The notes beneath the pieces were generated by a model. The model saw nothing but the letters and a program-made list of their open reading frames with translations. It had not been told where the DNA came from and made no database searches. DNA of 64,000 nt from NCBI GenBank assembly GCA_026023565.1, contig JAPETS010000020.1:62001-126000 (forward strand). Direction: 5' to 3'. The position numbers and the translations under genes were made by a program. Source of the DNA: Cirrosporium novae-zelandiae. Lineage: Eukaryota. The first letter of the stretch is position 1; the number at the start of each line of letters is the position of its first letter. Shown here piece by piece: positions 20,643 through 36,283 of the stretch.

Positions 20643-22513
20643 ATGGCCAACACTATTAGGAGTGCCCTTACCGGCTTTCGAACTTCTCCGCTCTGGAAAT
20701 CGTTGACGGGGCTGATTAAGGCTTTATGTACAAAGCCTGCTACGAGTTGTTTGCAATATCAGGAGGAACCCGATCTATACGGACCAGGAGGGTTTTATCG
20801 TGTCAGTCTAGGCGATGAGTTCGACAATCGGAGATATACCGTCTTAAGAAAGATAGGATACGGACAATATTCCACAGTTTGGCTCGCACGTGACTCAAAG
20901 TAAGCCTATATTCCCCGAATGGATAACTGCTTGCTGACTGTTTGCACCTACAGTGCAAGCATATGTTGCCCTCAAAATACTTAGATCAGACTGCTATGAT
21001 GGCAACCGCGATATGTTTGAAATCGAAATGCTCGAAGCCATCTCACGTATATCTGAATCTTCTACCCATCCCGGCCGAAAGTCTGTCGTGCAGCTTCTCG
21101 ATCATTTTCATCATATCAGGCCCAATGGAAATCATATCTGTCTAGTATTTAATGCCCTTGGACACCATCTTGGTTTCCAAGCGGCGAAATTCAAGCAAAG
21201 CAGAATATCTGTCAGGGTCATGAAAGAGGTTGCAAAGCAGCTACTCTTAGGTCTGGATTTTCTGCATCGAGAGTGCGGTATTATACATACAGGTACCATC
21301 TAAGTTTTTTTCACTTTGTTTGAACTATGTAAAGAAAATGCGTTATTTTGGGAGAATTACTGGTTAGGAAAAAAGCCCAACAATATTTGCTCAAGTCATT
21401 GATGTTACTAATAAATTGAAAATTATTTTTATAGATCTGAAACCTTCAAACATACTACTCAAGCTAGAGAATGTGGAGGAAGTAATCACGAAATATCTTT
21501 CGAAAACGTCTCCACGACTGTTGCCGGAACCAGACAAAAAGCTGGATACTCCAAATACTCATACAACAGGAAGCCCTGCCGTCGTACCTCTGCGCGAAAT
21601 CATCACAACGCCATTAATTACAAAAATAGAGAAAATACACATCAGAATAATAGATTTTGGAGTGTGTATGTCCCCTGCATTACTTTCGAATAATGGCAGT
21701 GAACAGTTTTAGATGGCTAATTTCATGCCCCCCGCTCCGCAGCATCATGGGTAGACCGACATCTGAGCGATCGCATTCAGTCACCGTTCCTCAGGGCCCC
21801 GGAAGTTACATTGGGTGCCCCTTGGAGTACAGGTGTGGATATATGGAGTTTGGGATGTCTTGTACGCCGCTATAAGACCTCTAGCTACAGCTACATGATT
21901 TAGTCATTTTGCCCTCACCCTTCCGGCTGTTCCAAATCCAACGTCTTATACCAATAAACTACCTACAAACGCTACTAACATAAATTGTGGTTCAGATGAT
22001 CGAGCTCGTCAAAGGTCATTATGCATTCCCGGGTAATGCTGCTAAAAATGGTGCATGGACCGCGGATGATGATCGCCTGGCCCAGTTGATGGAAGTATTC
22101 GGACCTTTCCCGAAGAGCTTACTCGCTAAAGGGACGATAACAAAGAAGTTTTTTGATAAAGAAGGTACATAATATAACAAAATAACCCTTTGTCCCAGAT
22201 CAGTTCCCCTACCTTGGAAATTGACCGCATTTAATTTTTTCTCGAATATCACCCCTGGCTTCGGAAGCTTCAGCATAATAGATTTTGATACGTTCTAATT
22301 ATAGACAATAAGAAATCTTCTACATATCCCGCAACTCAATCCTGCGAGCCTTGAGAGCCTTATGGACGGTGACGACGAAGTTCTTCGAAGACCAGAGGAC
22401 ATGCCACAGACCGAAGTCCCAGTGTTGACTTCTTGAAAAGCATGCTAGTCCTTGATCCAGAAAAGAGGAAATCAGCCGCTGAGATGTTGGAGCATAAATG
22501 GTTGACGATGTAG
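20643..22513 (+). pseudogene. SRPK-like (CMGC) Ser/Thr kinase, disrupted
   Basis: Motifs KIGYGQYSTVWLA, YVALKI, HTDLKPSN, IIDFG, LRAPEV and DIWSLGC are present. The exon 1/2 phases do not match, the last acceptor appears mutated (caataa-gaaat), and a frameshift near 22421 separates EVPV from VDFLKSMLVLDPEKRKSAAEMLEHKW. Confidence 0.8.
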
Positions 22514-23487: not shown

Positions 23488-24774
23488 ATAGTGATTTTGT
23501 ATGTATGCTTCTTGGTAGATAAGATCTCTCTCTATCAACTGAATATTAAAAGGATATTTAGGTAGGTATTTGGAGCATTTAGATATATTTTTTTTTAAAT
23601 CCTTCCGTTGATCCTGTTCTGTTCCGTTCTCTTCTACTTTGGTATATGTTCCATATGTTCTATGTACAGTACTCAGTATGTATGTATATATTATACGTTG
23701 TCTTAATAATAGCAGGGCTCTTCATCGTCATTTATCATGATCATCCTTCATAATCATCCTTTCTTATTAGAATTAGACTATATAACCACAAGTAAATTAT
23801 TTACCCCTCCTCAAGCCTTATCATCCTCATTATTATTATCTCTCAGCCTTAGCCTTATTAGCAGCAGTAATAGTAGGAGTAATAAGTAGCAAGCTCGGCA
23901 TACCGAACAATCCATCCATCAATCCATCCGTCAATGAAAAAAAAAAGCCCCGATCATCATCGCCGTCGTTATTCCATCCTTTCCTATTTTTTTCTCCACA
24001 ATCCATAATACGATTCCTAACTGACTCCTGATTCCCCCGTAGTCCTAATAACAGGATACCCAGGTAATTAGGTGAGGGATGAAAGGAAGGGCTTTACCTT
24101 GCTCCTGTTCTTGCGCTAGCCAGCGTACCTACATAGATGCCCCTATTATCACCATTCCCATCACCATCGCACCTGACATCTCCAGCCACCAGGTCCCCAT
24201 TGAAGAAAGTACCTACATTACATTAGCCGCTACCTCCCAAACTCCAAGTACAGTAAGATGGTGGTCCTGCATCATCGTCATCATCATGCAATCATTTTTG
24301 CGTAAACTATCCCGGATGGGGGAAGAACAAGAGCGGAAAAGCGCGAGCTGGGGTAGTAGTACGACGCACCCCACCCCCCCGTGCGTCCCACATGTGTGGA
24401 GATGTACAGGTGATATGCAAACAGCCGTATACCCCACAGCAGGTACTTTACAAAGGTGCAGAGGTAGGTGGCGCTAAAGTAGGAACCGAACGAACGAGGA
24501 GGAAAAAGAAAAAAATGGAACATAGAAGTGGAACCGAGAGGAGATTTTTATGCAGATGACGGGGGGGGGGGGGGGGGGGGGGTTGTTTGGATCAGCCTTG
24601 AGGATGTACTGTATGCGGTGTAAATATGTAATATATGTAATGTAATGTATGCATGTATCATCATATATGATGTAGATGAGTGCGAAAAAGCGAAAGTGAA
24701 AGCGAGGGCAAACAATCAATGCGTGGGGGATAATGTAGCACAAGTTAGATTTGACTGGTTAGATTTGACTGGTT

Positions 24775-24785
24775 TGATTGATTGG

Positions 24786-24834
<49 letters not shown>
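24775..24834. repeat. (GATT)n microsatellite
   Basis: Tandem TGAT units, preceded by a GTTAGATTTGACTG duplication. Confidence 0.9.
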
Positions 24835-27800
24835 CGCTTGAACTGATTGAGCCAAGATTATTTCTTTTCGTAAAAAAGGTGAGGTTGGTTAAAAATGAGG
24901 TAGGTACCTGGGTAGTTAGATTGGGTGGTGAGTTCGGAAATTTTTTTATAACGCCTTGAATGCCCTAATAATGATGATGACGATAATGATGGTAATAATC
25001 ATAATAGCATGATCAGATCATGTAAGTAGTTAACCACCTACAAGTAGTGAGCAAACACAGCAGAAAAAAAATACGATTGCCCCAACCCCCTCAAAATCCC
25101 CATTCCGGCTGAAACATCCGAGGCTAGGTTCTAACAATTACAATTACGTTTCTCCAAGTTTGAATATAACCAATTATATACCTCTGCACCTCTGCGTGCG
25201 TAACATGCATGAATCTTGTAAACTGGGGTAGCCTAGCCCTTATGCTGGTTCTAGTTACAGAGGGAAGAAAAGAAACGGAAGAAAGAAAAAGGCATCAAAT
25301 CGGATCCTCGCTTTAGAAGTCGGGTTGGATTGAATTTGGAGCCTTTTGCTTTTTGCTTGGGGATTTGAGGTTGTTTTTTTTCTCTATTATACTGTACTTG
25401 TCGATCGAGGGATCAATCTTCTTTTTCCCCATCGGCTGTGTGTGTGTTGTGCTGCTTGCCTTGCCTTGCTTGTGCAGGCAGGCTAAGTAAATGACTTGGA
25501 TTGGATAGCTAGGATGTTTATTATGTGTTGTAGGTCCTGGACCAAGGAGGGGGAGATGAGGTGGGAAGGGGGTGCAGGATGAATATAGGTATATGGATTG
25601 GTTATTAAATGCCGGGTTATCCCCTGACAGAAAAGAAAGTAAATATCTATCACACAGCATAAGATGGTGGTTTCTTAGTGAGGCGGTCCTGTCATGCGAA
25701 GCATATAGCTTAGTTGGTTTTGCTTAGTTGGGTAATTAGTAGTTAGCTTATGGATTTAGCTACTGTAGCTGGCTGGTGAGAGGTAAGTTAATTAGCCCTT
25801 GTTATTTTTGAATGTCGTTGGCGTCGTTAACATGATTTTCAGATTTTCCTTAGCATCATCAGTCAAAGAAAGGCAGCCATAGAAAAAAAAGAAGAGACAA
25901 GACTCAATACTTACTTATTGGGGCCACCATTCAACTGCCGTAAAACTAATTAACTTGAAGAATACAGGATGGGTCCCTCCATTTTCCTTCTGAACTAACC
26001 TGATAGTGAAGTCCATTAATTAGAAATGATACTAAAATTTTCTGTCTAGTTTAGCGTCCACCACCAAAACAACGACAACACATCGCATCATCCATCACAT
26101 TATCTTATCAAACCAAAAATAAGAAGAAAGGAATTGGCCAGATATATAAAGTTAGTCCGAAGTAGAGCCTTAGGTTGGATTTTAACCTGCCCAAGAGAGT
26201 TGAGATGAAGAGGGAGAGAAAGGAAAGGAAAGGAAAGGCAACTAAAGGCTTTTGTTAGTTTACCGTACCTCGGTAATATTGTTGTTATTCATATTATTAT
26301 TCATATTATTATTCATATTATTCATATTATTATTATGGTTTCATAAATCATAAATGAGTCCTTGTTTTTTTCTGATTTCTTCGTCTTCTACTTTCTTTTC
26401 TTTCTTTCCATTAAGACTGGGTGACTACTAAGTGACTGACTTGAATCACTCGAAATGTGCAACCCTTCCTTTCCCCGATCCGGTCCTATCCATAGTAGAC
26501 AAAGCCGATAGGTAAGTAAGGGGACTTAAGAGGTAATTATCATTGATTCATTTTTAATTATTTTCTTCTTCTTTCAAAAAAGGACCTATTAACTAATCCG
26601 ACTTACCGACTACTAACACTGGCTAACCTAATCTAAAAACAATAAAGTGAAAACAAACAAAATGAAAAAAAAATATAGACGAAAAAGAAAAAAAGGGAAA
26701 AAAAAATAAAATAACACTTGACACATTTCCGGAACATTTTGGAAACTTTGATCACGTTACAAGTCTTTAGTGCTTCTCTGCAACTGTTACTAACACTATG
26801 CGACCATCCTATCTATAGGTCTTACAGGTTTAATGCTAGTACAGCATACGTCAAGGTACCTTGGATGGAGGAAACCTGACGTTGAGACCTGCTCGGTGAT
26901 GCTGTCATCCGTCACCACTATGAGAGAAATCTCTCGCAGGAATATTCCGACAGGAACATGCAGGGATTGATTTGCTTATTTGAAAATGGCTAGCTAGTAC
27001 TAACCTTATCTGCCATCTATTGGCCGAGACATGTACAACATTGGCCCCCAAAGTAATTGGTAGACCCGCGAGGGCCTGTAGTAGAGACTTGTCTGAGGAC
27101 GTGCAGTGGCATATGGCTCTTGGGTCAAAGGTAGCAAGAGCTTGGCGGTGAATGACATTCTTATATCCTAATATTGGATTCTACTTGCGCCACACGAAGG
27201 ACGGATGACGCCAGGCAGGAGCTGACCGCTGCCCTGGAGACGACTATACTTCCTGTACCTGCCTATAGGTCAGGCATTTGGTTGGGATTGTTAGATGTAA
27301 ATGATTGGGGAAGGAACCGCAGATGCTGAGGGGAAGTGAAAAAGATGTTGTAAGATCTTCTTGGTAACTTCTATCAATTGGTTGATAGTAGTGGGATGAG
27401 TCACCGATAAGGATGGGGAAGAGACGCGGGTGTATAAGTAGACAGCTCTCTCCCTTCAATCCGTCAACATCTAGATCCATAACTTTCCGAAAGCTCCAAC
27501 TTGAACTCATTACCATATCTCCGATTATCGGCCGAGCCAGTTACTTGTATCGCTCGCCAAGTCCATAGCCCCCTCCCATCCGACAATCCAACCAGTACAC
27601 TATAAACCCACCTTTATACTCTCCACTATCAATATGGGTTGGACTTGCTCAAGCTGCAGACACGTCAACGACGGCATTTGGAATGCCTTTTCTCGCTGCA
27701 CCAAATGTGGAAAAAAGAGATGTTCGCAACAACCATCTCTTGTCACCGAAAGGAAAGAAGACATTGGAAATGAAGTCAAGCAAGAAGGAAACAGCATAGA

Positions 27801-28301
27801 TTGAAATTATGGGGGCCTTGATGAAATTATAGGGCTTTGGTGATGTAAAGCCACCTTTTCCAAGGATAGAGACCAACAAAATGGAAATGCTAATTGCGTC
27901 AACTTAGGAGTCGGAAACGCAGGAACCAGGGAATATTGAGCGCATCAAGGGAGAGTTATATCCATGAATGAATGGTTGGCGAACAACTTGCAAGTGACTT
28001 GAATTATGATTTTTATTTCTGTTTCAATTATGGGTTCAGCATTCGGAGGGGGGAGTGTTGGGAGATGGCAGGAATGGATTTGAACTTAATCGATTCAAGC
28101 ACACAGAGATGTATACTTAGTTTTGTATGAGTGAAATGGAACCGCTTTTTTTATTCAATCATGTTGGTCTCTTTTCGGTATTTCACGAACAGATGCACTT
28201 AGGTCTCACATTATATCCGCCGTTTCAGATGCAGTCATCTGAGAACATCTCCAGAGTGCTCCATGTCCCTCCGGTGTACCTCCGGTGTACCCTTCACATC
28301 T

Positions 28302-29057
28302 TCATTCCCGATACTGAGTTCTTCCTCTTGATTCCATTGTTATCTCCCCGTCACTTCTTTTGCCCGGGGGATCTTTGGATGCCCTATTGTTTTCCTTATC
28401 AGATGCTCTTATCTTCCTCAACCACGTTAGCTCTCGATGTCTCACTTCAACATCCCACCGCGCTCTATTGATCTTTCTCCTAAGCTCCTCTGCAAATGCC
28501 ACACTTCGAAACCAGCCAAACTTGCAGGATACGCCTATGATTAAGTCTGCGTAACTATCCTTATCCCTATATTTTCCCTCCTCCATTCGGCTTTGCACAT
28601 CCCTCAGCACTTCCTCGAACCTGTCCCGTGTCTTCTTGTGGGAAAAGAGCTCCCGTTGAAATGCAGAGCTGCGGCCAGAACGAGGGCCCCCCTCATCACC
28701 GTCGCTAAGCGCATATCCCATATCTCGTTCAAAATGTCTTATAGAGTCATCATCTTTGGAAGCCTCACGAAACTTGGACATGACCATCTCAAAGTCTTCG
28801 CACGCGTCGGGCGGTGTTGGTAAGTCATGGACATCGAAATCAAGATCAGGATAGGGGATTAGAGGGATCCAGTAAGAAGAGTACGATATGATGAGTAGCT
28901 TGCGTACTGGGTTGGAAGGTTCGGACGACGTCAAAGCCAAGGGAGAGAGATCAAGATCAATATCTTCCCCTGCCCGACCATTTGATGATTGCCATTTCAA
29001 CTTGATAAGTCGAGATCGGGCAAAGATGAATCGACCTAGAGGAGATAAGGTACCCAT
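28302..29057 (-). CDS. Stand-alone RapZ (YhbJ/YvcJ) C-terminal-domain protein
   Basis: LLIISYS..PDLDFDVHDLPTP..RSG..LIIGVSCKFGWFRSVAFAEEL..VEVRHREL follows, in order, the bacterial RapZ CTD motifs ESFG..[44 protein letters not shown]. No P-loop N-terminal domain is present. Start codon uncertain. Confidence 0.75.
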   Translation of the reverse strand: MGTLSPLGRFIFARSRLIKLKWQSSNGRAGEDIDLDLSPLALTSSEPSNPVRKLLIISYSSYWIPLIPYPDLDFDVHDLPTPPDACEDFEMVMSKFREASKDDDSIRHFERDMGYALSDGDEGGPRSGRSSAFQRELFSHKKTRDRFEEVLRDVQSRMEEGKYRDKDSYADLIIGVSCKFGWFRSVAFAEELRRKINRARWDVEVRHRELTWLRKIRASDKENNRASKDPPGKRSDGEITMESRGRTQYRE

Positions 29058-30226
29058 TGCAAACAAAGAACTTGGATGGAGAATTAGGGAGAGTTAGAGG
29101 GAATAACAACAGATATCACTTTCAGTAGAAACATATCATCATCCAGACGGGGTGGTACATTGGAATGCACTGTACCACCTCGTGCAACCATTGGAATGCA
29201 TCACAATGCAAGAATTGCAACTGTATTTTAGCGGTGATAGGAAGGAGATTGATAATAGAAAGAAAGATGGTACAGTAACTTGACCTACAAGAATCCTCCT
29301 TTGTCCTTGGGAGAAGGAGAATGAGCCTTCAGTGATTAAAGACTTTCTAAGTACTTTCGTAAATGCTTGTTTGAAGCAGCTTGACTCACTTTAGGGACTT
29401 TTTACTGTTATCAATCAATCCGAATTTGCGTGCTTTCACCTACAGCTCTCAGCGTATCTTTTATCCCAGTAATTTAGATAAATATGGCCTACTGCTTCCC
29501 TTAAATCGTTAAATCCCGTGCATAGTGTATGTAATATACAAGTACTCAGTACACTATTGTATTTTACTAGTTACTTATAATCTGCTTCAGTCTAGAAGTA
29601 GGCTATTACCATTCAAACCCATCTAGATCGAGGATTGAAATCGTTATTCCTATGGCGATTGTTTCTGAGAGTTTGTGATTCTGTGTCTGGTTCTGTACCA
29701 GTAAGAAAAGGAAGTTTAAGATGTATGCAAGTGTATCAGAGGAAAGGCTCTATTTTTGTTATTTGCTTTAGATGTTTCTAAGAGCTCTCTAGCTATGACT
29801 TGGGCAGAAAAGAACGAGAAAATAGGAAAAGCAGTCACGCTCCTGACTATATCACTAGCACAATATCCCAATTTTTCAAGTGAAGCTCGGCGTCACGTCA
29901 AGTCTCTGCATCAACAATGGTATCCCATCCCGACCACGATGTAGCCTCAGTTTTTCGACCCAATATCATAACCCCTAGAAGTTTTGGTTTTGGGACATTG
30001 GTGCGAGTCATAATGCTTTAGCAGATCAACAAAAACCACCGAACCAACTACCACACAGCTCACAAGCCAAGCGGCCTAAGGAAGGGTGCATCTGGTAGCG
30101 AAATTAGCATCTTTAAACATATCATTCTATTTCTAGTATTGTTTAACTCACTTGTCTTGCATGTCTTTCACTTTCGGCTGTACTATGAAAATCCAAATTA
30201 CAGACAACAGGGCAACACCCGTGACG

Positions 30227-30780
30227 TTAGTCATTCATCATCAATTTGTTACCCTGTATGGTCGGTTCATCTGCAAAAAACTCTTTGCATTTACCACAGT
30301 ACATATGTTTAGCATCTTTTATTCGATAAAATGCGAGTTTTTCCTTGGTTTCAACGCTCGCGTTGCAGTTTCCAAGCATGCAGACGTAGCTCGCTAGGGG
30401 GTGTTGTATCTGGATATTCGATATTTCTGCATCTGCAGATAAACATGGCTGGTCGAAGGACAAAGCTGCCTCCAAGTTACCTTGAGGTGCATCCGTACGC
30501 TAAAATATGTTAGAAAATGAGATATTAGCACTACAGGACACACCCACCTCGTCAAGTTCTTTAGTGGCAAACTTAAAGCCATAGTCACTCTTCAGTTCAT
30601 CGCCGTCTTCCTTGCCGAGCTCCGATGATAACACGTTGATATACTGCCACGAAAGATCGTTAAGTGAGATTCCATGACTGACATTTTCCTTGGTGCGAGT
30701 CTTCGATAATATCTCGCTCTCCTTATGGTCGTCTGGAATATATAAAGAATGTCCTATGTCGGAAGATGAGTTTCATCGTG
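30227..30780 (-). pseudogene. Degenerate remnant of a C2H2-type zinc-finger gene
   Basis: YVCMLGNCNASVETKEKLAFYRIKDAKHMYCGKCKEFFADE has finger-like spacing but has lost His ligands. Upstream fragments are broken by stops. Boundaries approximate. Confidence 0.35.
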
Positions 30781-31612
30781 TTATGGAGTGAAGAGTCAAG
30801 GCAGGGGAGATAAAATATGTTAACTAAATAGAGCCCCGGTCAACGGATATAAGAAAAAAAGAGTGTTCGGAGGAAGCATAAGGCGAATTTTATGAGGTAG
30901 TGACGGTCACTATTAGGGCACAGAAATTGCTTTATTGGATTAACCATCAGCCGACGCAACTTATGAGATGCTGTTATCGTATGGTGTGGCTGATGTTTCT
31001 TAAGAGATCACCGAGGAGGATCCAGAATGTTCTTTCAGTCTTCAAGTGTGCTGTCATACTGTTCAGAGTGCCCAAGATACCTACCCCCGTCCCTGTTGTG
31101 GTGGTTTATCTCATCTGATTGCCTAGGTAGCTAGGACATTCATTACAACTGATATATAGTTATACCTAATCCATGATTATACCGGGCTCATGGTTCTATT
31201 CATATTATAACTAAACGGTTTTTCATATAGTAGGAATGGCAGCCTCCTGATCCATCTTTAAATGAGAAAGGTTCTAGTGGAATGGCAAAAGGGCAATAGT
31301 ACATGATTTGATGCTAAAATATGAAGTGACGTGCTCGTGAGAAACATGATGGATTGAATTTTTGTTTCTGTTTAATATGCAAGCGTCATAGATATATTTA
31401 ATCAAAGCCTGTAGACGTCCACATTTCTGTTTGTCTTCCCTGGTTCCGCCTTCATTCGCTTTTTGATATCTCCCGCATAATGCCAAACACTGGACTACAG
31501 AACTCCCTGTAAAACAAACTTGAATCCAAGTACTAGAAAAACGGAATCCAAAATATAAATCGCTCCAAAACGCCATCCATGCCAAGGCCCACGCCTTTCG
31601 ACTTCAACCACC

Positions 31613-32376
31613 TTATCCCTGCAAACAAATGCTAACAAACTCTTCCCGATCAATGGCCCCATCGCCATCCATATCAAACTCCTCAATCATGGCTGCTAGT
31701 TCCTCTTCCTGCAGTCCTTCCCCCAACTCCCTTGCTACCCGTCTGAGGTCTTCTAGATCAATCTTCCCCTTCCCGCCTTCATCGAACAATTCAAACGCCC
31801 TTAGAATTTCCTCCCTAGGGTCCCGATTGAGAATACGAGTAGCTAATAAGTTCTGAAAGATAGGTAGTGGCAAAAGAAGCTGAGTGGGATGCGTGTTTGC
31901 GACAGCAGGGAGGGCGGCTTTACCCGCGGAAGAGGAAGCAGGGTTGGATGAGATAGAAGATGATGGGACACCATGAGTTTGGAGGATGTTGATTAGTTCG
32001 GGTTTGGGGAGGTCAAAGCCGAGGGCTTTCATGGCGACTTTGAGCTCGTGGTAGTCGATGTGCTTATCTTTATCGAGGTCGAAAAGAGCAAACTATTATG
32101 TATATAATTAACCTACACTCTTCTCAATCGCGATGGATTACGTACAGCCTCATTAACCTCCTCCTTCTGCTCATCGCTCAACATGTTGAACTGGTTCTGC
32201 CCCTCTCTCTCTAGTCTTTCTCTTTCCGCTTGTCGCTCTCGCTCCAAGCGCTGGGCCTCTCGCAAAGCCGCGCTGGCGCTGGCAGAAGCTGCGAACTGGT
32301 TTGGATTCGTTCCTGTGCGGTATCCGAGAGCATTCCGGGTAGGAAAGGTGGGGTGCGAGGGGTTTTGAGATGCCAT
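31613..32376 (-). CDS. cdc31: Centrin (Cdc31), EF-hand spindle pole body protein, ~236 aa
   Basis: Exons 32376-32146 and 32092-31613 give [38 protein letters not shown] ... DPREEILRAFELFD ... MIEEFDMDGDGAIDREEF. Confidence 0.95.
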
Positions 32377-34243: not shown

Positions 34244-35124
34244 AACCGGACCAGCGGATTACCCGATTACCCGACTTAACCCTACCACGCCTACTCCTCC
34301 ACTCCCTGCCGAGGGGTTTCCTTCCGTAAAGCTTCTTCAACGTGTGTTGATAGTCGATAGGTCAGATAGAATAACCATCCTGTACTCTCACATGAAAGTT
34401 CAAGACTTATTTGGCCCTACCCCTCCCCCTCGTTTTTCATGGATGATTTGGCGGGGCAGCAATGTTTATCATCCCAGCCTCTGAAGCCACCGCAATTGCC
34501 AATTGTTGGGATAATAGTTTAGTAGAGAGCTGCCAGCCGTGAAGAGAGAAATAATATAGGACATGTCTGGTTTTTATGGGAAACTAATGGTCGCACCACA
34601 GGGTTCTTATGTTCTGGCCCATCATAGTACGCAAGATGGTCCCATAGCCCGTTCACATCCGCAATATCCTGATAACCTATTATTATGTGTTGGTAAGACC
34701 CCTCAAATAAATATGGTCCAGATTCCTCCAGGAAAATCTTATCCTTACCTCTCTGTACTCCCTTCGTTCCAATTTCCCGTATCATCTCCCGGCTTTTTAT
34801 CATCTCCGCTCATATCACCGCTCAGATCTATTGATTTGGGATTAGCAGACGATAATCGATTCTTGTGATACTGTATTGTATTGTATTGTCTGGACCGAGG
34901 TCAATCATTTCCTTAGAAAGAGCCCCAAAAGAAGCACAAAAACCAGACAAACTAAGTCATTCACACGCAAACGTCATTGTTTGGTTCCGAACTCACGTGA
35001 AAACCAAAATTACCCCTCTGAATCTTATAAACACCGTTTTCTCTCCACTATCGGCACCATGATGTCTCTTCGAGAATCTCTCAGCTCCCATCCTAAATTT
35101 GTTCCTCTCTCCCCTCCACCCTTT

Positions 35125-36283
35125 ATGGCTTCCGCTGTCAATGGTGAAAACAGTGGTGGTGCCGTTGGCCAAGAGAAGATTAACACCGACATCATTACCT
35201 TGACCCGTTTTCTGACTGAAGAGCAATCAAAACACAAAGAAGCCACTGGTGATTTTACACTTTTGTGCCATGCTCTCCAGTTCTCCTTCAAATCCATTGC
35301 ATACTACATCCGACGAGCTACTCTGATTAACCTGACTGGATTGGCTGGCTCCTCCAACACTACCGGAGACGACCAGAAGAAACTCGACGTAATTGGCAAT
35401 GATCTCTTCGTTGCGGCCATGCGATCCTCTGGAAAGGTCCGAATGCTAGTTTCTGAAGAAGAGGAGAAGACTATCTACTTTGACGAGTATCCAGATGCCC
35501 GTTATGCGGTAGTGTGTGACCCTATTGATGGCTCCTCCAATCTCGATGCTGGTGTCTCGGTTGGTACTATCTTCGGCATCTTCAGGATCAAGGAGGGCTC
35601 TGCGGGCAAGGAGGAAGACATTCTACAACCTGGTACTGAACTTGTTGCTTCTGGCTTCACCATGTACGGAGCTTCGGCCCAACTCGTCATCACCATGCGC
35701 GACAGCACTGTTAATGGTTTCACTCTCGACAACTCACTTGGTGAATTCATCCTTACACATCCCAACATGCGTATGCCAAAGTCACGGGCAATCTACTCGG
35801 TCAACGAGGGAAACAGTCTTTACTGGGAGGAGCCGGTGAAGGAGTACATTAATAGCCTAAAAGAACCATCCAAAGTTGGTGCAAAACCATATTCATCACG
35901 ATATATCGGTAGTATGGTTGCAGATGCCTATCGTACACTTCTCTATGGTGGCATCTTTGCCTATCCTGCAGATAAGAAGAGTCCAAAGGGAAAGCTACGG
36001 ATTTTATACGAGTGTGCACCTATGGCCATGGTTTTCGAGAATGGTAAGCCATTGATTCCCTTTTTTGAATATTCAGACCCAACCCACTGGATATCCCTTT
36101 GTATCGAAAGTGAAGATTGCTAATTGGGTTTCAATAGCCGGTGGACAAGCCATCAACAGCAAAATGCAACGTATGCTCGAGGTCAAGCCGGAGTCGATCC
36201 ATGATCGGTCAGGGATTTTCCTGGGAAGTTGGAACGAGGTCCAAAAAGTAATCGATGTGCATAAGGCTTATGCTAAGTCATGA
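35125..36283 (+). CDS. fbp1: Fructose-1,6-bisphosphatase class I, ~354 aa
   Basis: Motifs GDDQKKLDVIGN, VSEE, CDPIDGSSN, RYIGSMVAD and GKLRILYECAPMA. Intron at 36044-36137. In-frame upstream ATGs at 35059/35062 are alternative starts. Confidence 0.97.

What the first reader, a model, noticed from the sequence alone, without database searches (positions are those of the whole stretch)
28302..29057. Fungal stand-alone RapZ C-terminal domain with a CX5RS loop
Seen: an intronless ORF matching the bacterial RapZ CTD motifs in order, lacking the P-loop N-domain and carrying a ~40-aa acidic insert after LPTPP. Established: in E. coli this domain binds the sRNAs GlmZ/GlmY and senses glucosamine-6-phosphate to control GlmS via RNase E, and fungi have no such circuit. 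Seen: the GCTGGKHRS loop reads SCKFGWFRS, keeping C-X5-R-S spacing like the phosphate-binding loop of cysteine phosphatases while losing K and H. Inference: an uncharacterised eukaryotic phosphosugar sensor, phosphatase or RNA-binding protein, possibly linked to hexosamine/chitin metabolism and possibly of bacterial origin. Similar unstudied proteins probably occur in other filamentous fungi.
Basis: partly seen in the sequence, partly recalled or inferred. Interest (0 to 1): 0.75.

Follow-up and report, generated by a model that had tools for sequence, protein, structure and literature searches.

The report
Divergent fungal stand-alone RapZ C-domain protein
A gene of an ascomycete fungus encodes only the phosphate-binding half of the bacterial regulator RapZ; it is an unusually altered member of a protein family that databases already list in fungi but nobody has studied.

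Summary

The loop is C-K-F-G-W-F-R-S. Extra acidic sequence of 34-36 residues after PTPP has no counterpart in the 96 aligned relatives.

It is not a new kind. Stand-alone RapZ_C proteins are already named in Coniochaeta, Alternaria, Mycena and other fungi. This scan has met them before in Naegleria, bacteria and phages. The likeness of the RapZ loop to the cysteine-phosphatase loop is in print (PMC7199280).

What is particular is the divergence. Cys, Gly, Arg and Ser of the loop are kept, but three near-universal residues (Arg, Asn, His) are replaced. The end branch is three times the family median. The host, by an identical neighbouring protein, is Cirrosporium novae-zelandiae, an isolated lineage, which explains the lack of close orthologues.

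Function is untested. The most likely role is a phosphate-ligand binder with altered specificity. A hexosamine link has no support.

The parts
28302..29057 (-). Whole coding sequence, 251 codons plus the stop at 28302-28304; one exon.
   Evidence: The annotated frame has the best codon score of the six frames. A gene with exactly this product is on record on a 599,686-bp contig.
28905..29057 (-). N-terminal region, residues 1-51. No counterpart in relatives and low model confidence. The first 30 residues hold 6 Lys/Arg and no Asp/Glu.
   Evidence: pLDDT 44-60; composition; variable N-termini in relatives.
28809..28904 (-). Domain part 1, residues 52-83: strand 52-60 (LLIISYSSY), strand 72-75 (LDFD), then H77 and P-T-P-P (80-83).
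   Evidence: DSSP of the model; structural alignment to 5O5S from residue 51; column counts.
28683..28808 (-). Acidic extra segment, residues 84-125, net charge -8, modelled as two helices (83-99 and 103-117). In alignment A2, residues 94-97 (SKFR) take the place of the family's K-x-x-R.
   Evidence: pLDDT 62-78. Codon score is highest in the annotated frame. None of the 9 in-frame GT..AG intervals here combines a 3-of-4 donor match with a YAG acceptor, and none has a branch motif.
28422..28682 (-). Domain part 2, residues 126-212: helices 131-137 and 141-160, strand 172-178, loop, helix 184-195, strand 201-207.
   Evidence: Pfam match to residues 126-210; pLDDT 84-98.
28503..28526 (-). Anion-binding loop C178-K-F-G181-W-F-R184-S185, at the junction of strand 172-178 and helix 184-195.
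   Evidence: C, G and S are invariant in 96 of 96 other rows and R is in 95 of 96. Position 183 is His in 92 of 96 rows (here Phe). Position 182 is R, K or H in 84 of 96 rows (here Trp).
28431..28439 (-). H207-R208-E209, the family's H-R-D motif at the end of the last strand.
   Evidence: H in 94 of 96 rows, R in 94 of 96, D in 91 of 96 and E in 5 of 96.
28305..28421 (-). C-terminal tail, residues 213-251, Lys/Arg-rich, net charge +4. Relatives have similar basic tails.
   Evidence: tails of relatives.

Best explanation
Shown:
- This is an intact protein-coding gene of an ascomycete. A neighbouring protein is identical to one named for Cirrosporium novae-zelandiae.
- It encodes a stand-alone copy of the RapZ C-terminal domain: a four-stranded sheet with flanking helices.
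- It belongs to the eukaryotic, mostly fungal, family that databases call 'RapZ C-terminal domain-containing protein'. It is one of that family's most divergent members.

Inferred mechanism:
- As in E. coli RapZ, the loop between the third strand and the following helix (Cys178-x2-Gly181-x2-Arg184-Ser185) forms a cradle. Backbone amides plus the Arg hold one phosphate or sulphate-like group of a ligand.
- With no kinase-like N-domain, and with no GlmY/GlmZ/RNase E circuit in fungi, the protein cannot be an RNase adaptor of the E. coli type.
- It is more likely a small sensor or binder, possibly an enzyme, for a phosphorylated metabolite or a phosphorylated RNA end.
- In this copy the two loop side chains that are basic or His in nearly all relatives are Trp and Phe. 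The family's Arg77 and Asn81 are His and Thr. An acidic two-helix segment follows PTPP.
- The anion cradle is therefore probably kept, but what sits next to the phosphate must differ. That favours a ligand with a hydrophobic or aromatic part over a polyanionic RNA helix.
For: Identity:
- PF22740 above cut-off.
- A profile of the family hits 5O5S at E 1.4e-22. That profile includes 15 bacterial rows. The fungal-only profile A1 still reaches bacterial RapZ at about 1e-16 to 1e-12.
- All 12 Foldseek PDB hits at E 0.001 or below are E. coli RapZ.

Family:
- 61 non-self relatives at E <= 0.001 among 1.84 billion representatives, 103-343 aa long. All 30 whose sequences I read are stand-alone; one is a tandem of two domains.
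- 13 rows carry fungal species names.
- Several Ascomycota clusters of 61-125 members exist in the Atlas.

Real gene:
- The chance of the open frame is 3.5e-7, and the annotated frame has the best codon score.
- The domain core is modelled at pLDDT 84-98.
- A branch of 1.58 changes per site without a stop or frameshift is not what a dead gene shows (inference).

Loop as phosphate site:
- Malonate or sulphate is bound by the homologous E. coli loop (PMC5737377, passages).
- R253A, G249W, H190A, C247A and C247S abolish E. coli RapZ function (PMC9841335, passages).
- C, G and S are invariant and R is in 95 of 96 rows in my alignment.
Against: - No expression data and no close orthologue are available, so selection on this copy is not measured.
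- Three positions conserved in 87-92 of 96 rows are changed (R77H, N81T, H183F), and the mostly basic position 182 is Trp. This could equally mean loss of ligand binding.
- In E. coli a bulky residue at the position of Phe180 (G249W) is inactivating. However, this position is non-Gly in most fungal relatives.
- The nature of the ligand is pure inference.
- Only 13 stand-alone relatives carry species names. The rest come from unnamed assemblies.
Confidence: 0.55

Rival explanations
1. Active cysteine-dependent phosphatase. Cys178 attacks a phosphate ester held by the C-x5-R-S loop, as in tyrosine and dual-specificity phosphatases. The substrate would be a phosphosugar, a nucleotide or an RNA 5' end.
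For: - The signature C-x2-G-x2-R-S sits at a strand-to-helix junction.
- C, G and S are invariant in 96 of 96 rows and R is in 95 of 96.
- After the two RapZ rows, 28 of 48 rows of the wide fold search are PTP/DUSP-type phosphatases. For a canonical fungal member the count is 20 of 48.
- The range ends place the model's Cys on residue 363 of Ci-VSP, 302 of zebrafish VSP and 95 of VHZ. That these are the catalytic cysteines is recalled. C363S and C95S appear in paper listings.
- PMC7199280 (passage) notes the loop homology and proposes hydrolysis of GlcN6P.
- PMC9841335 (passages) reports that C247S is inactive and describes density of a 'chemically transformed product'.
- A RapZ homologue, HpaP, is titled as having phosphatase activity. 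I saw this only in a reference list.
Against: - No phosphatase family appears in the Pfam scan at E <= 10.
- No general-acid residue was identified.
- This copy has lost the near-universal His183.
- No enzymatic activity of any RapZ C-domain is shown in the passages I read.
Confidence: 0.15
2. RNA-binding protein that works like the E. coli domain. A dimer would lay its two loops and its basic tail along the backbone of a structured RNA.
For: - The E. coli domain binds GlmY and GlmZ on its own, with the pocket on the RNA backbone (PMC7073468 and PMC9841335, passages).
- The tail after H-R-E is Lys/Arg-rich, with net charge +4, as in relatives.
Against: - The equivalents of the E. coli RNA-contact residues R184 and K251 are His77 and Trp182. 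H252 is Phe183.
- A segment of charge -8 is inserted next to the PNP motif.
- No N-domain is present to build the tetramer that matches the RNA repeats.
Confidence: 0.12
3. A gene under relaxed constraint or on its way to loss. The ORF would be a drifting paralogue whose ligand site no longer works, while a canonical copy elsewhere in the genome does the family's job.
For: - The end branch is 1.58 against a median of 0.49, the second longest of 95 rows.
- The residues at 77, 182 and 183 are found in none of the 96 other rows.
- The best relative is only 40% identical.
- The flanks are gene-poor.
Against: - The frame is intact.
- The invariant C, G, S, the Arg, H-R-[DE], E190 and W201 are all kept.
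- The core is modelled confidently.
- The lack of close relatives is expected for this isolated lineage. Even the highly conserved FBPase next door has its nearest other match at 86%.
- No whole genome is held, so a second copy could not be sought. There is none in the window: 1 of 1288 ORFs matches, and that is the gene itself.
Confidence: 0.12
4. The acidic segment is partly an unspliced in-frame intron, so the mature protein would lack most of the insert.
For: An in-frame GT..AG interval of 99 nt (codons 85-117, GTGCGA...TTAG) exists. The segment has no counterpart in any relative.
Against: - Of the 9 in-frame candidates in the segment, none combines a donor matching at least 3 of 4 consensus positions with a YAG acceptor, and none has a CTRAY branch motif.
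- The segment has the best codon score of all parts of the gene in the annotated frame: 0.30 against -0.48 and -1.29.
- It is modelled as two helices at pLDDT 62-78.
Confidence: 0.05

Closest known systems
C-terminal domain of E. coli RapZ (YhbJ); PDB 5O5S, 5O5O/5O5Q, 8B0I/8B0J; Pfam PF22740
   Different: - No kinase-like N-domain, so no RapZ-type tetramer.
- The host has no GlmY/GlmZ/RNase E circuit (established knowledge).
- Of the pocket residues, H190, T248, G249 and H252 are Pro, Lys, Phe and Phe here.
- RNA contacts R184 and K251 are His and Trp.
- There are 34-36 extra acidic residues after P-T-P-P.
- Sequence identity to 5O5S is about 20% (19% by Foldseek, 22% by VIA-align).
Eukaryotic stand-alone 'RapZ C-terminal domain-containing proteins', for example Coniochaeta ligniaria CONLIGDRAFT_203175, Alternaria, Aaosphaeria, Mycena floridula. 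UniRef and NCBI names only; none is characterised in the papers I could search.
   Different: - This copy replaces Arg77, Asn81 and His183, each present in 87-92 of 96 rows.
- It has Trp where 84 of 96 rows have R, K or H.
- Its extra segment sits after P-N-P-P. Many relatives instead carry an acidic insert before the third strand.
- It is at most 40% identical to any relative.
Cysteine-dependent phosphatases of the PTP/DUSP fold (PRL, VHZ/DUSP23, voltage-sensing phosphatases, PIR1, baculovirus RNA 5'-phosphatase)
   Same: C-x2-G-x2-R-[ST] loop between a strand and a helix. These are the most frequent structural neighbours after RapZ (28 of 48 and 20 of 48 rows). The loop homology of RapZ has been noted in print (PMC7199280).
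   Different: - There is no sequence-profile match.
- No general-acid loop was identified.
- The RapZ literature relates the domain to phosphofructokinase instead (PMC5737377, PMC9841335).
- Catalysis is not shown.
Bacterial and viral stand-alone or fused RapZ_C proteins: Chloroflexota stand-alone forms, APH-kinase+RapZ_C in Bacteroidota, NUDIX+RapZ_C in Bacillota. Earlier notes of this scan describe phage and bacterial stand-alone copies.
   Same: The domain occurs as a separate module, away from the RapZ N-domain.
   Different: These are prokaryotic or viral, and their relation to the fungal clade was not tested here. The partner domains (kinase, NUDIX) are absent from this gene and from the tested ORFs around it.

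Membership tests
RapZ C-terminal domain (Pfam PF22740) | Profile match above the curated cut-off | tested here: met
   39.1 bits against a cut-off of 27, E 1e-9. The match covers profile positions 39-120 of 121, because the insert splits the domain.
RapZ C-terminal domain (Pfam PF22740) | Fold of the solved domain (5O5S) | tested here: met
   [not shown]
RapZ C-terminal domain (Pfam PF22740) | Loop core Cys-x2-Gly-x2-Arg-Ser | tested here: met
   C178, G181, R184 and S185 are present. C, G and S are in 96 of 96 other rows and R is in 95 of 96.
RapZ C-terminal domain (Pfam PF22740) | His before the loop Arg (E. coli H252), Arg of F-D-x-R (E. coli R184), Asn of P-N-P | tested here: not met
   Phe183 (His in 92 of 96 rows), His77 (Arg in 90 of 96) and Thr81 (Asn in 87 of 96).
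RapZ proper (RNase adaptor; NCBIfam NF003828 equivalog) | N-terminal P-loop NTPase domain (PF03668) fused to the C-domain | tested here: not met
   No PF03668 hit in the protein or in the three upstream minus-strand ORFs tested. NCBIfam score is 25.8 against a cut-off of 244, over the C-terminal part only.
RapZ proper (RNase adaptor; NCBIfam NF003828 equivalog) | Ligand pocket H190, T248, G249, H252, R253 (PMC5737377) | tested here: not met
   The equivalents are P83, K179, F180, F183 and R184, so 1 of 5 is kept. The mapping uses the bacterial rows of alignment A2 and the profile-to-5O5S alignment.
RapZ proper (RNase adaptor; NCBIfam NF003828 equivalog) | Binds GlmY/GlmZ, recruits RNase E, forms a tetramer | not testable with these tools
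   That these partners are absent from fungi is established knowledge, not tested here.
Cysteine phosphatases of the PTP/DUSP superfamily | C-x5-R-[ST] signature between a strand and a helix | tested here: met
   C178-KFGWF-R184-S185, with strand 172-178 and helix 184-195.
Cysteine phosphatases of the PTP/DUSP superfamily | Sequence-profile membership (Pfam phosphatase families) | tested here: not met
   The Pfam scan at E <= 10 lists only PF22740 and one chance hit.
Cysteine phosphatases of the PTP/DUSP superfamily | Shared fold | tested here: inconclusive
   [not shown]
Cysteine phosphatases of the PTP/DUSP superfamily | General-acid residue and phosphatase activity | not testable with these tools
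   Model coordinates are not readable here, and no assay is possible.
Phosphofructokinase sugar-phosphate-binding domain (the relation proposed in the RapZ papers) | Shared fold | tested here: inconclusive
   [not shown]

The most novel reading that the evidence does not exclude
The whole RapZ C-domain superfamily, including this eukaryotic branch, would be a distant and so far unclassified offshoot of the cysteine-phosphatase fold, and catalytically active. The fungal stand-alone proteins would then be a new class of eukaryotic Cys-dependent phosphatases, or pseudophosphatases, acting on phosphosugars or phosphorylated RNA ends. This Trp/Phe-lined copy would be a specificity variant.
Probability: 0.15. 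Interest if true: 0.75.

Novelty: new variant of a known kind. Interest (0 to 1): 0.4.

Why it matters
RapZ is one of the best-understood bacterial links between a metabolite and RNA decay. What its C-domain does chemically is still open. One paper reports that a Cys-to-Ser change kills function and sees a transformed ligand in the pocket.

A eukaryotic family that keeps only this domain, with exactly the Cys, Gly, Arg and Ser of the loop invariant, shows that the domain has a job independent of GlmZ and RNase E. It also offers a simpler system to find that job. The copy described here marks which positions can change (His, the basic loop residue, Arg77) and which cannot.

In itself it is one more uncharacterised member of a family already listed in databases, in a little-studied fungus.

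Tried and rejected
- **RNA runs:** none was listed for 27900-29400, so there is nothing on expression.
- **Homodimer job** (residues 46-230, two copies): no verdict.
- **Whole genome:** none is held, so a canonical paralogue elsewhere could not be sought.
- **Word-index protein search** with the single sequence found only the protein itself.
- **Single-sequence PDB search** found no RapZ. The profile search did.
- **Papers:** I found nothing on fungal or eukaryotic RapZ-domain proteins.
  - 'RapZ'+'fungi': 8 papers, none on the subject by title or abstract.
  - 'RapZ C-terminal domain-containing protein': 0 papers.
  - 'UPF0042'+'fungal': 0 papers.
  - PF22740/IPR053931/PapZ_C/RapZ_C: 4 papers matched and 3 were listed; none of those 3 is relevant.
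  - 'YvcJ'+'phosphatase'+'pNPP': 0 papers.
- **Net charge of the domain** does not set this copy apart: -4 here against a median of -3 in 81 stand-alone rows.
- **Mitochondrial presequence:** the first 30 residues are basic without acidic residues, but the helical hydrophobic moment is low, 0.33 or less. I do not claim targeting.
- **Insert as an intron:** rejected as unlikely.
- **Neighbouring genes:** no functional clue.
- **Fold-search families:** any family absent from the fold-search lists is not thereby excluded.

Full report
**1. What is in the sequence**

Window 28302-29057 (minus strand) is an ATG-to-stop ORF of 251 codons. Stop-to-stop it spans 263 codons. It is by far the longest open frame between 24 and 34 kb, where the next longest is 160 codons. 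At the window's base composition, 263 open codons have a chance of 3.5e-7.

Against a small reference of 488 codons from two neighbouring genes, the annotated frame scores best of the six: -0.03 against -0.10 to -0.58. A gene with exactly this product, carrying a precomputed PF22740 label, is on record on a contig of 599,686 bp.

**2. What it is**

- Pfam gives PF22740 (RapZ C-terminal domain) at E 1e-9, 39.1 bits against a cut-off of 27, for residues 126-210.
- The NCBIfam equivalog for whole RapZ is far below its cut-off (25.8 against 244) and matches only its C-terminal part.
- The protein has no N-terminal P-loop domain. The three tested upstream ORFs on the same strand have no Pfam hit.
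- An AlphaFold2 model built on a 97-row alignment has mean pLDDT 77.2, pTM 0.70, and 84-98 in the domain core.
- All 12 Foldseek hits at E 0.001 or below in the PDB are E. coli RapZ.

**3. The family**

A full HMMER scan of 1.84 billion representatives found 62 proteins at E <= 0.001, the query among them. The best other hit is E 8.9e-11 at 40% identity. Lengths are 103-343 aa.

Of the 30 sequences I read, all are the domain alone with variable ends. One (P0012) is a tandem of two domains.

A profile of 52 of them found 265 proteins at E <= 1e-5, of which 120 were listed.
- The stand-alone rows come first. Thirteen carry species names, all fungal: Mycena floridula (2), Coniochaeta (6 rows from 4 species or strains), Aaosphaeria arxii, Polyplosphaeria fusca, Rhypophila decipiens, Hypoxylon sp., Alternaria rosae and A. 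panax. Several have the UniRef name 'RapZ C-terminal domain-containing protein'.
- Bacterial full-length RapZ follows, from about E 1e-16.

The protein Atlas lists several clusters of that name with 61-125 members, mostly Ascomycota. It also lists bacterial forms: stand-alone in Chloroflexota, fused to an APH-type kinase in Bacteroidota, and fused to NUDIX in Bacillota.

Earlier notes of this scan describe the same stand-alone domain in Naegleria (with an acidic insertion, and said also to occur in fungi), in bacteria and in phages. These are unchecked notes. The fungal occurrence is confirmed here.

I found no paper on the eukaryotic family.

**4. The host**

The fructose-1,6-bisphosphatase exon at 35059-36045 is 100% identical to an NCBI protein named for Cirrosporium novae-zelandiae, on a contig of the same length as the one holding the query. 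That species belongs to the Xylobotryomycetes.

The next-best FBPase is only 86% identical, so no close relative of this fungus is in the collection. That explains why no close orthologue of the query exists in the databases. It also means that selection on this gene cannot be measured now.

**5. How this copy differs**

In the 97-row alignment (80 complete and 2 partial stand-alone rows, including the query, plus 15 bacterial rows), three columns are invariant: C178, G181 and S185. Counts over the 96 other rows:

| Position | This copy | Other 96 rows |
|---|---|---|
| 184 | R | R 95 |
| 183 | Phe | H 92 |
| 182 | Trp | R, K or H 84 |
| 77 | His | R 90 |
| 81 | Thr | N 87 |
| 207 | H | H 94 |
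| 208 | R | R 94 |
| 209 | Glu | D 91, E 5 |

Query residues 85-92 and 100-123 have no residue in any other row. Alignment A1 shows the same material as one 36-column block (half the rows were displayed). Residues 84-125 carry net charge -8 and are modelled as two helices at pLDDT 62-78.

Mapped on E. coli numbering through the bacterial rows and the profile alignment to 5O5S:
- Pocket residues H190, T248, G249, H252 and R253 (PMC5737377, passages) become P83, K179, F180, F183 and R184.
- RNA-contact residues R184 and K251 (PMC9841335, passages) become H77 and W182.

In a quick maximum-likelihood tree (95 rows, 2 partial rows left out, 179 columns), the stand-alone rows and the 15 bacterial rows are split at SH-aLRT 100. 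The query is unplaced inside the stand-alone clade. Its end branch is 1.58 against a median of 0.49, the second longest in the tree. The tree is unrooted in effect and its bacterial sampling is thin, so it says nothing firm about origin.

**6. Is the insert an intron?**

Nine in-frame GT..AG intervals lie within codons 82-130. None combines a donor matching 3 of 4 consensus positions with a YAG acceptor, and none has a branch motif. The segment has the best codon score of the gene in the annotated frame. I keep this rival at 0.05.

**7. The Cys-x5-Arg loop**

This is in print. [quoted passage not shown] Islam et al. (PMC9841335, passages) found C247A and C247S inactive, suggested a catalytic role for the thiol, and mention density of a 'chemically transformed product' of GlcN6P.

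- (a) The residues invariant or nearly invariant across fungal and bacterial rows are exactly the signature residues C, G, R and S.
- (b) After RapZ itself, the most frequent structural neighbours are PTP/DUSP-type phosphatases.
- (c) Where the alignments end on the helix after the loop, the offsets put the model's Cys on Ci-VSP 363, zebrafish VSP 302 (in both models) and VHZ 95.
  - That these are the catalytic cysteines is recalled.
  - C363S and C95S appear in the listings.

**8. Reading**

Shown: an intact gene; a RapZ C-domain by profile and fold; a stand-alone form; a member of a catalogued but unstudied eukaryotic family; strong divergence.

Inferred: the loop still cradles a phosphate-like group, because C, G, R, S and the strand-loop-helix geometry are kept. 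The surroundings of that group have changed so much that neither GlcN6P sensing nor RNA-helix binding of the E. coli kind can be assumed. The changes are Trp and Phe in the loop, loss of Arg77, Asn81 and His183, and an acidic two-helix addition.

I put 0.55 on 'functional phosphate-ligand binder with altered specificity'. The rivals are active Cys phosphatase (0.15), RapZ-like RNA binder (0.12), drifting or non-functional copy (0.12) and the insert being an intron (0.05). No evidence links the gene to hexosamine or chitin metabolism. The neighbours (an EF-hand centrin-like gene, FBPase, a kinase fragment, and a small zinc-finger-like ORF) give no clue.

**9. Verdict**

This is a variant of a known kind. 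The family is already in the databases, was met before in this scan, and its phosphatase-loop likeness is published. Interest is moderate. The value lies in the family as a simpler system for finding out what the RapZ C-domain does, and in this copy as a natural mutant of the loop.

Noticed in passing
window 27634-27804 (+), within the stop-to-stop ORF 27505-27804: A 56-codon ORF with a C-x2-C ... C-x2-C zinc-finger-like motif (MGWTCSSCRH...CTKCGKKRC). It is convergent with the RapZ-like gene and lies about 500 bp beyond its stop. It has a weak, below-cut-off match to Pfam DUF6671 (E 6.6e-4, 20 bits against 23.8).
   Followed up: partly
window 35059-36045 (+), within the ORF 34846-36123: Fructose-1,6-bisphosphatase exon (PF00316 and PF18913). 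It is 100% identical to an NCBI protein named for Cirrosporium novae-zelandiae. The nearest other FBPase is 86% identical, so the host lineage is poorly sampled.
   Followed up: yes
window 31616-32092 (-): EF-hand protein exon (centrin or calmodulin-like; EF-hand_7 at E 3.8e-20). It is the nearest recognisable gene upstream of the RapZ-like gene.
   Followed up: partly
window 24000-28300 and 29100-31250: Both flanks of the gene lack ORFs with Pfam matches among those tested, and have no open frame longer than 136 codons. The gene sits in a gene-poor stretch.
   Followed up: partly
protein P0012 (343 aa; relative): A tandem of two RapZ_C domains. The first keeps the Cys of the loop (K-C-A-N-G-R-R-R-S). 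The second has Asp in its place (Y-K-D-D-N-G-R-H-Q-S), a natural loss of the otherwise invariant Cys in a duplicated copy.
   Followed up: no
Atlas clusters: In bacteria the RapZ C-domain is also fused to an APH-type kinase (Bacteroidota) and to a NUDIX hydrolase (Bacillota). It also stands alone in Chloroflexota. These partners act on phosphorylated small molecules or nucleotide ends.
   Followed up: no
window 28968-29057 (-), residues 1-30: The N-terminus has 6 Lys/Arg and no Asp/Glu, and a low-confidence helix at residues 6-22. Relatives mostly start right at the domain. The hydrophobic moment is low (0.33 or less), so organelle targeting is not claimed.
   Followed up: partly
window 20938-21300 (+): Protein-kinase domain fragment (PF00069, E 2.2e-6, below cut-off for this exon alone). 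It is probably one exon of a multi-exon kinase gene.
   Followed up: no
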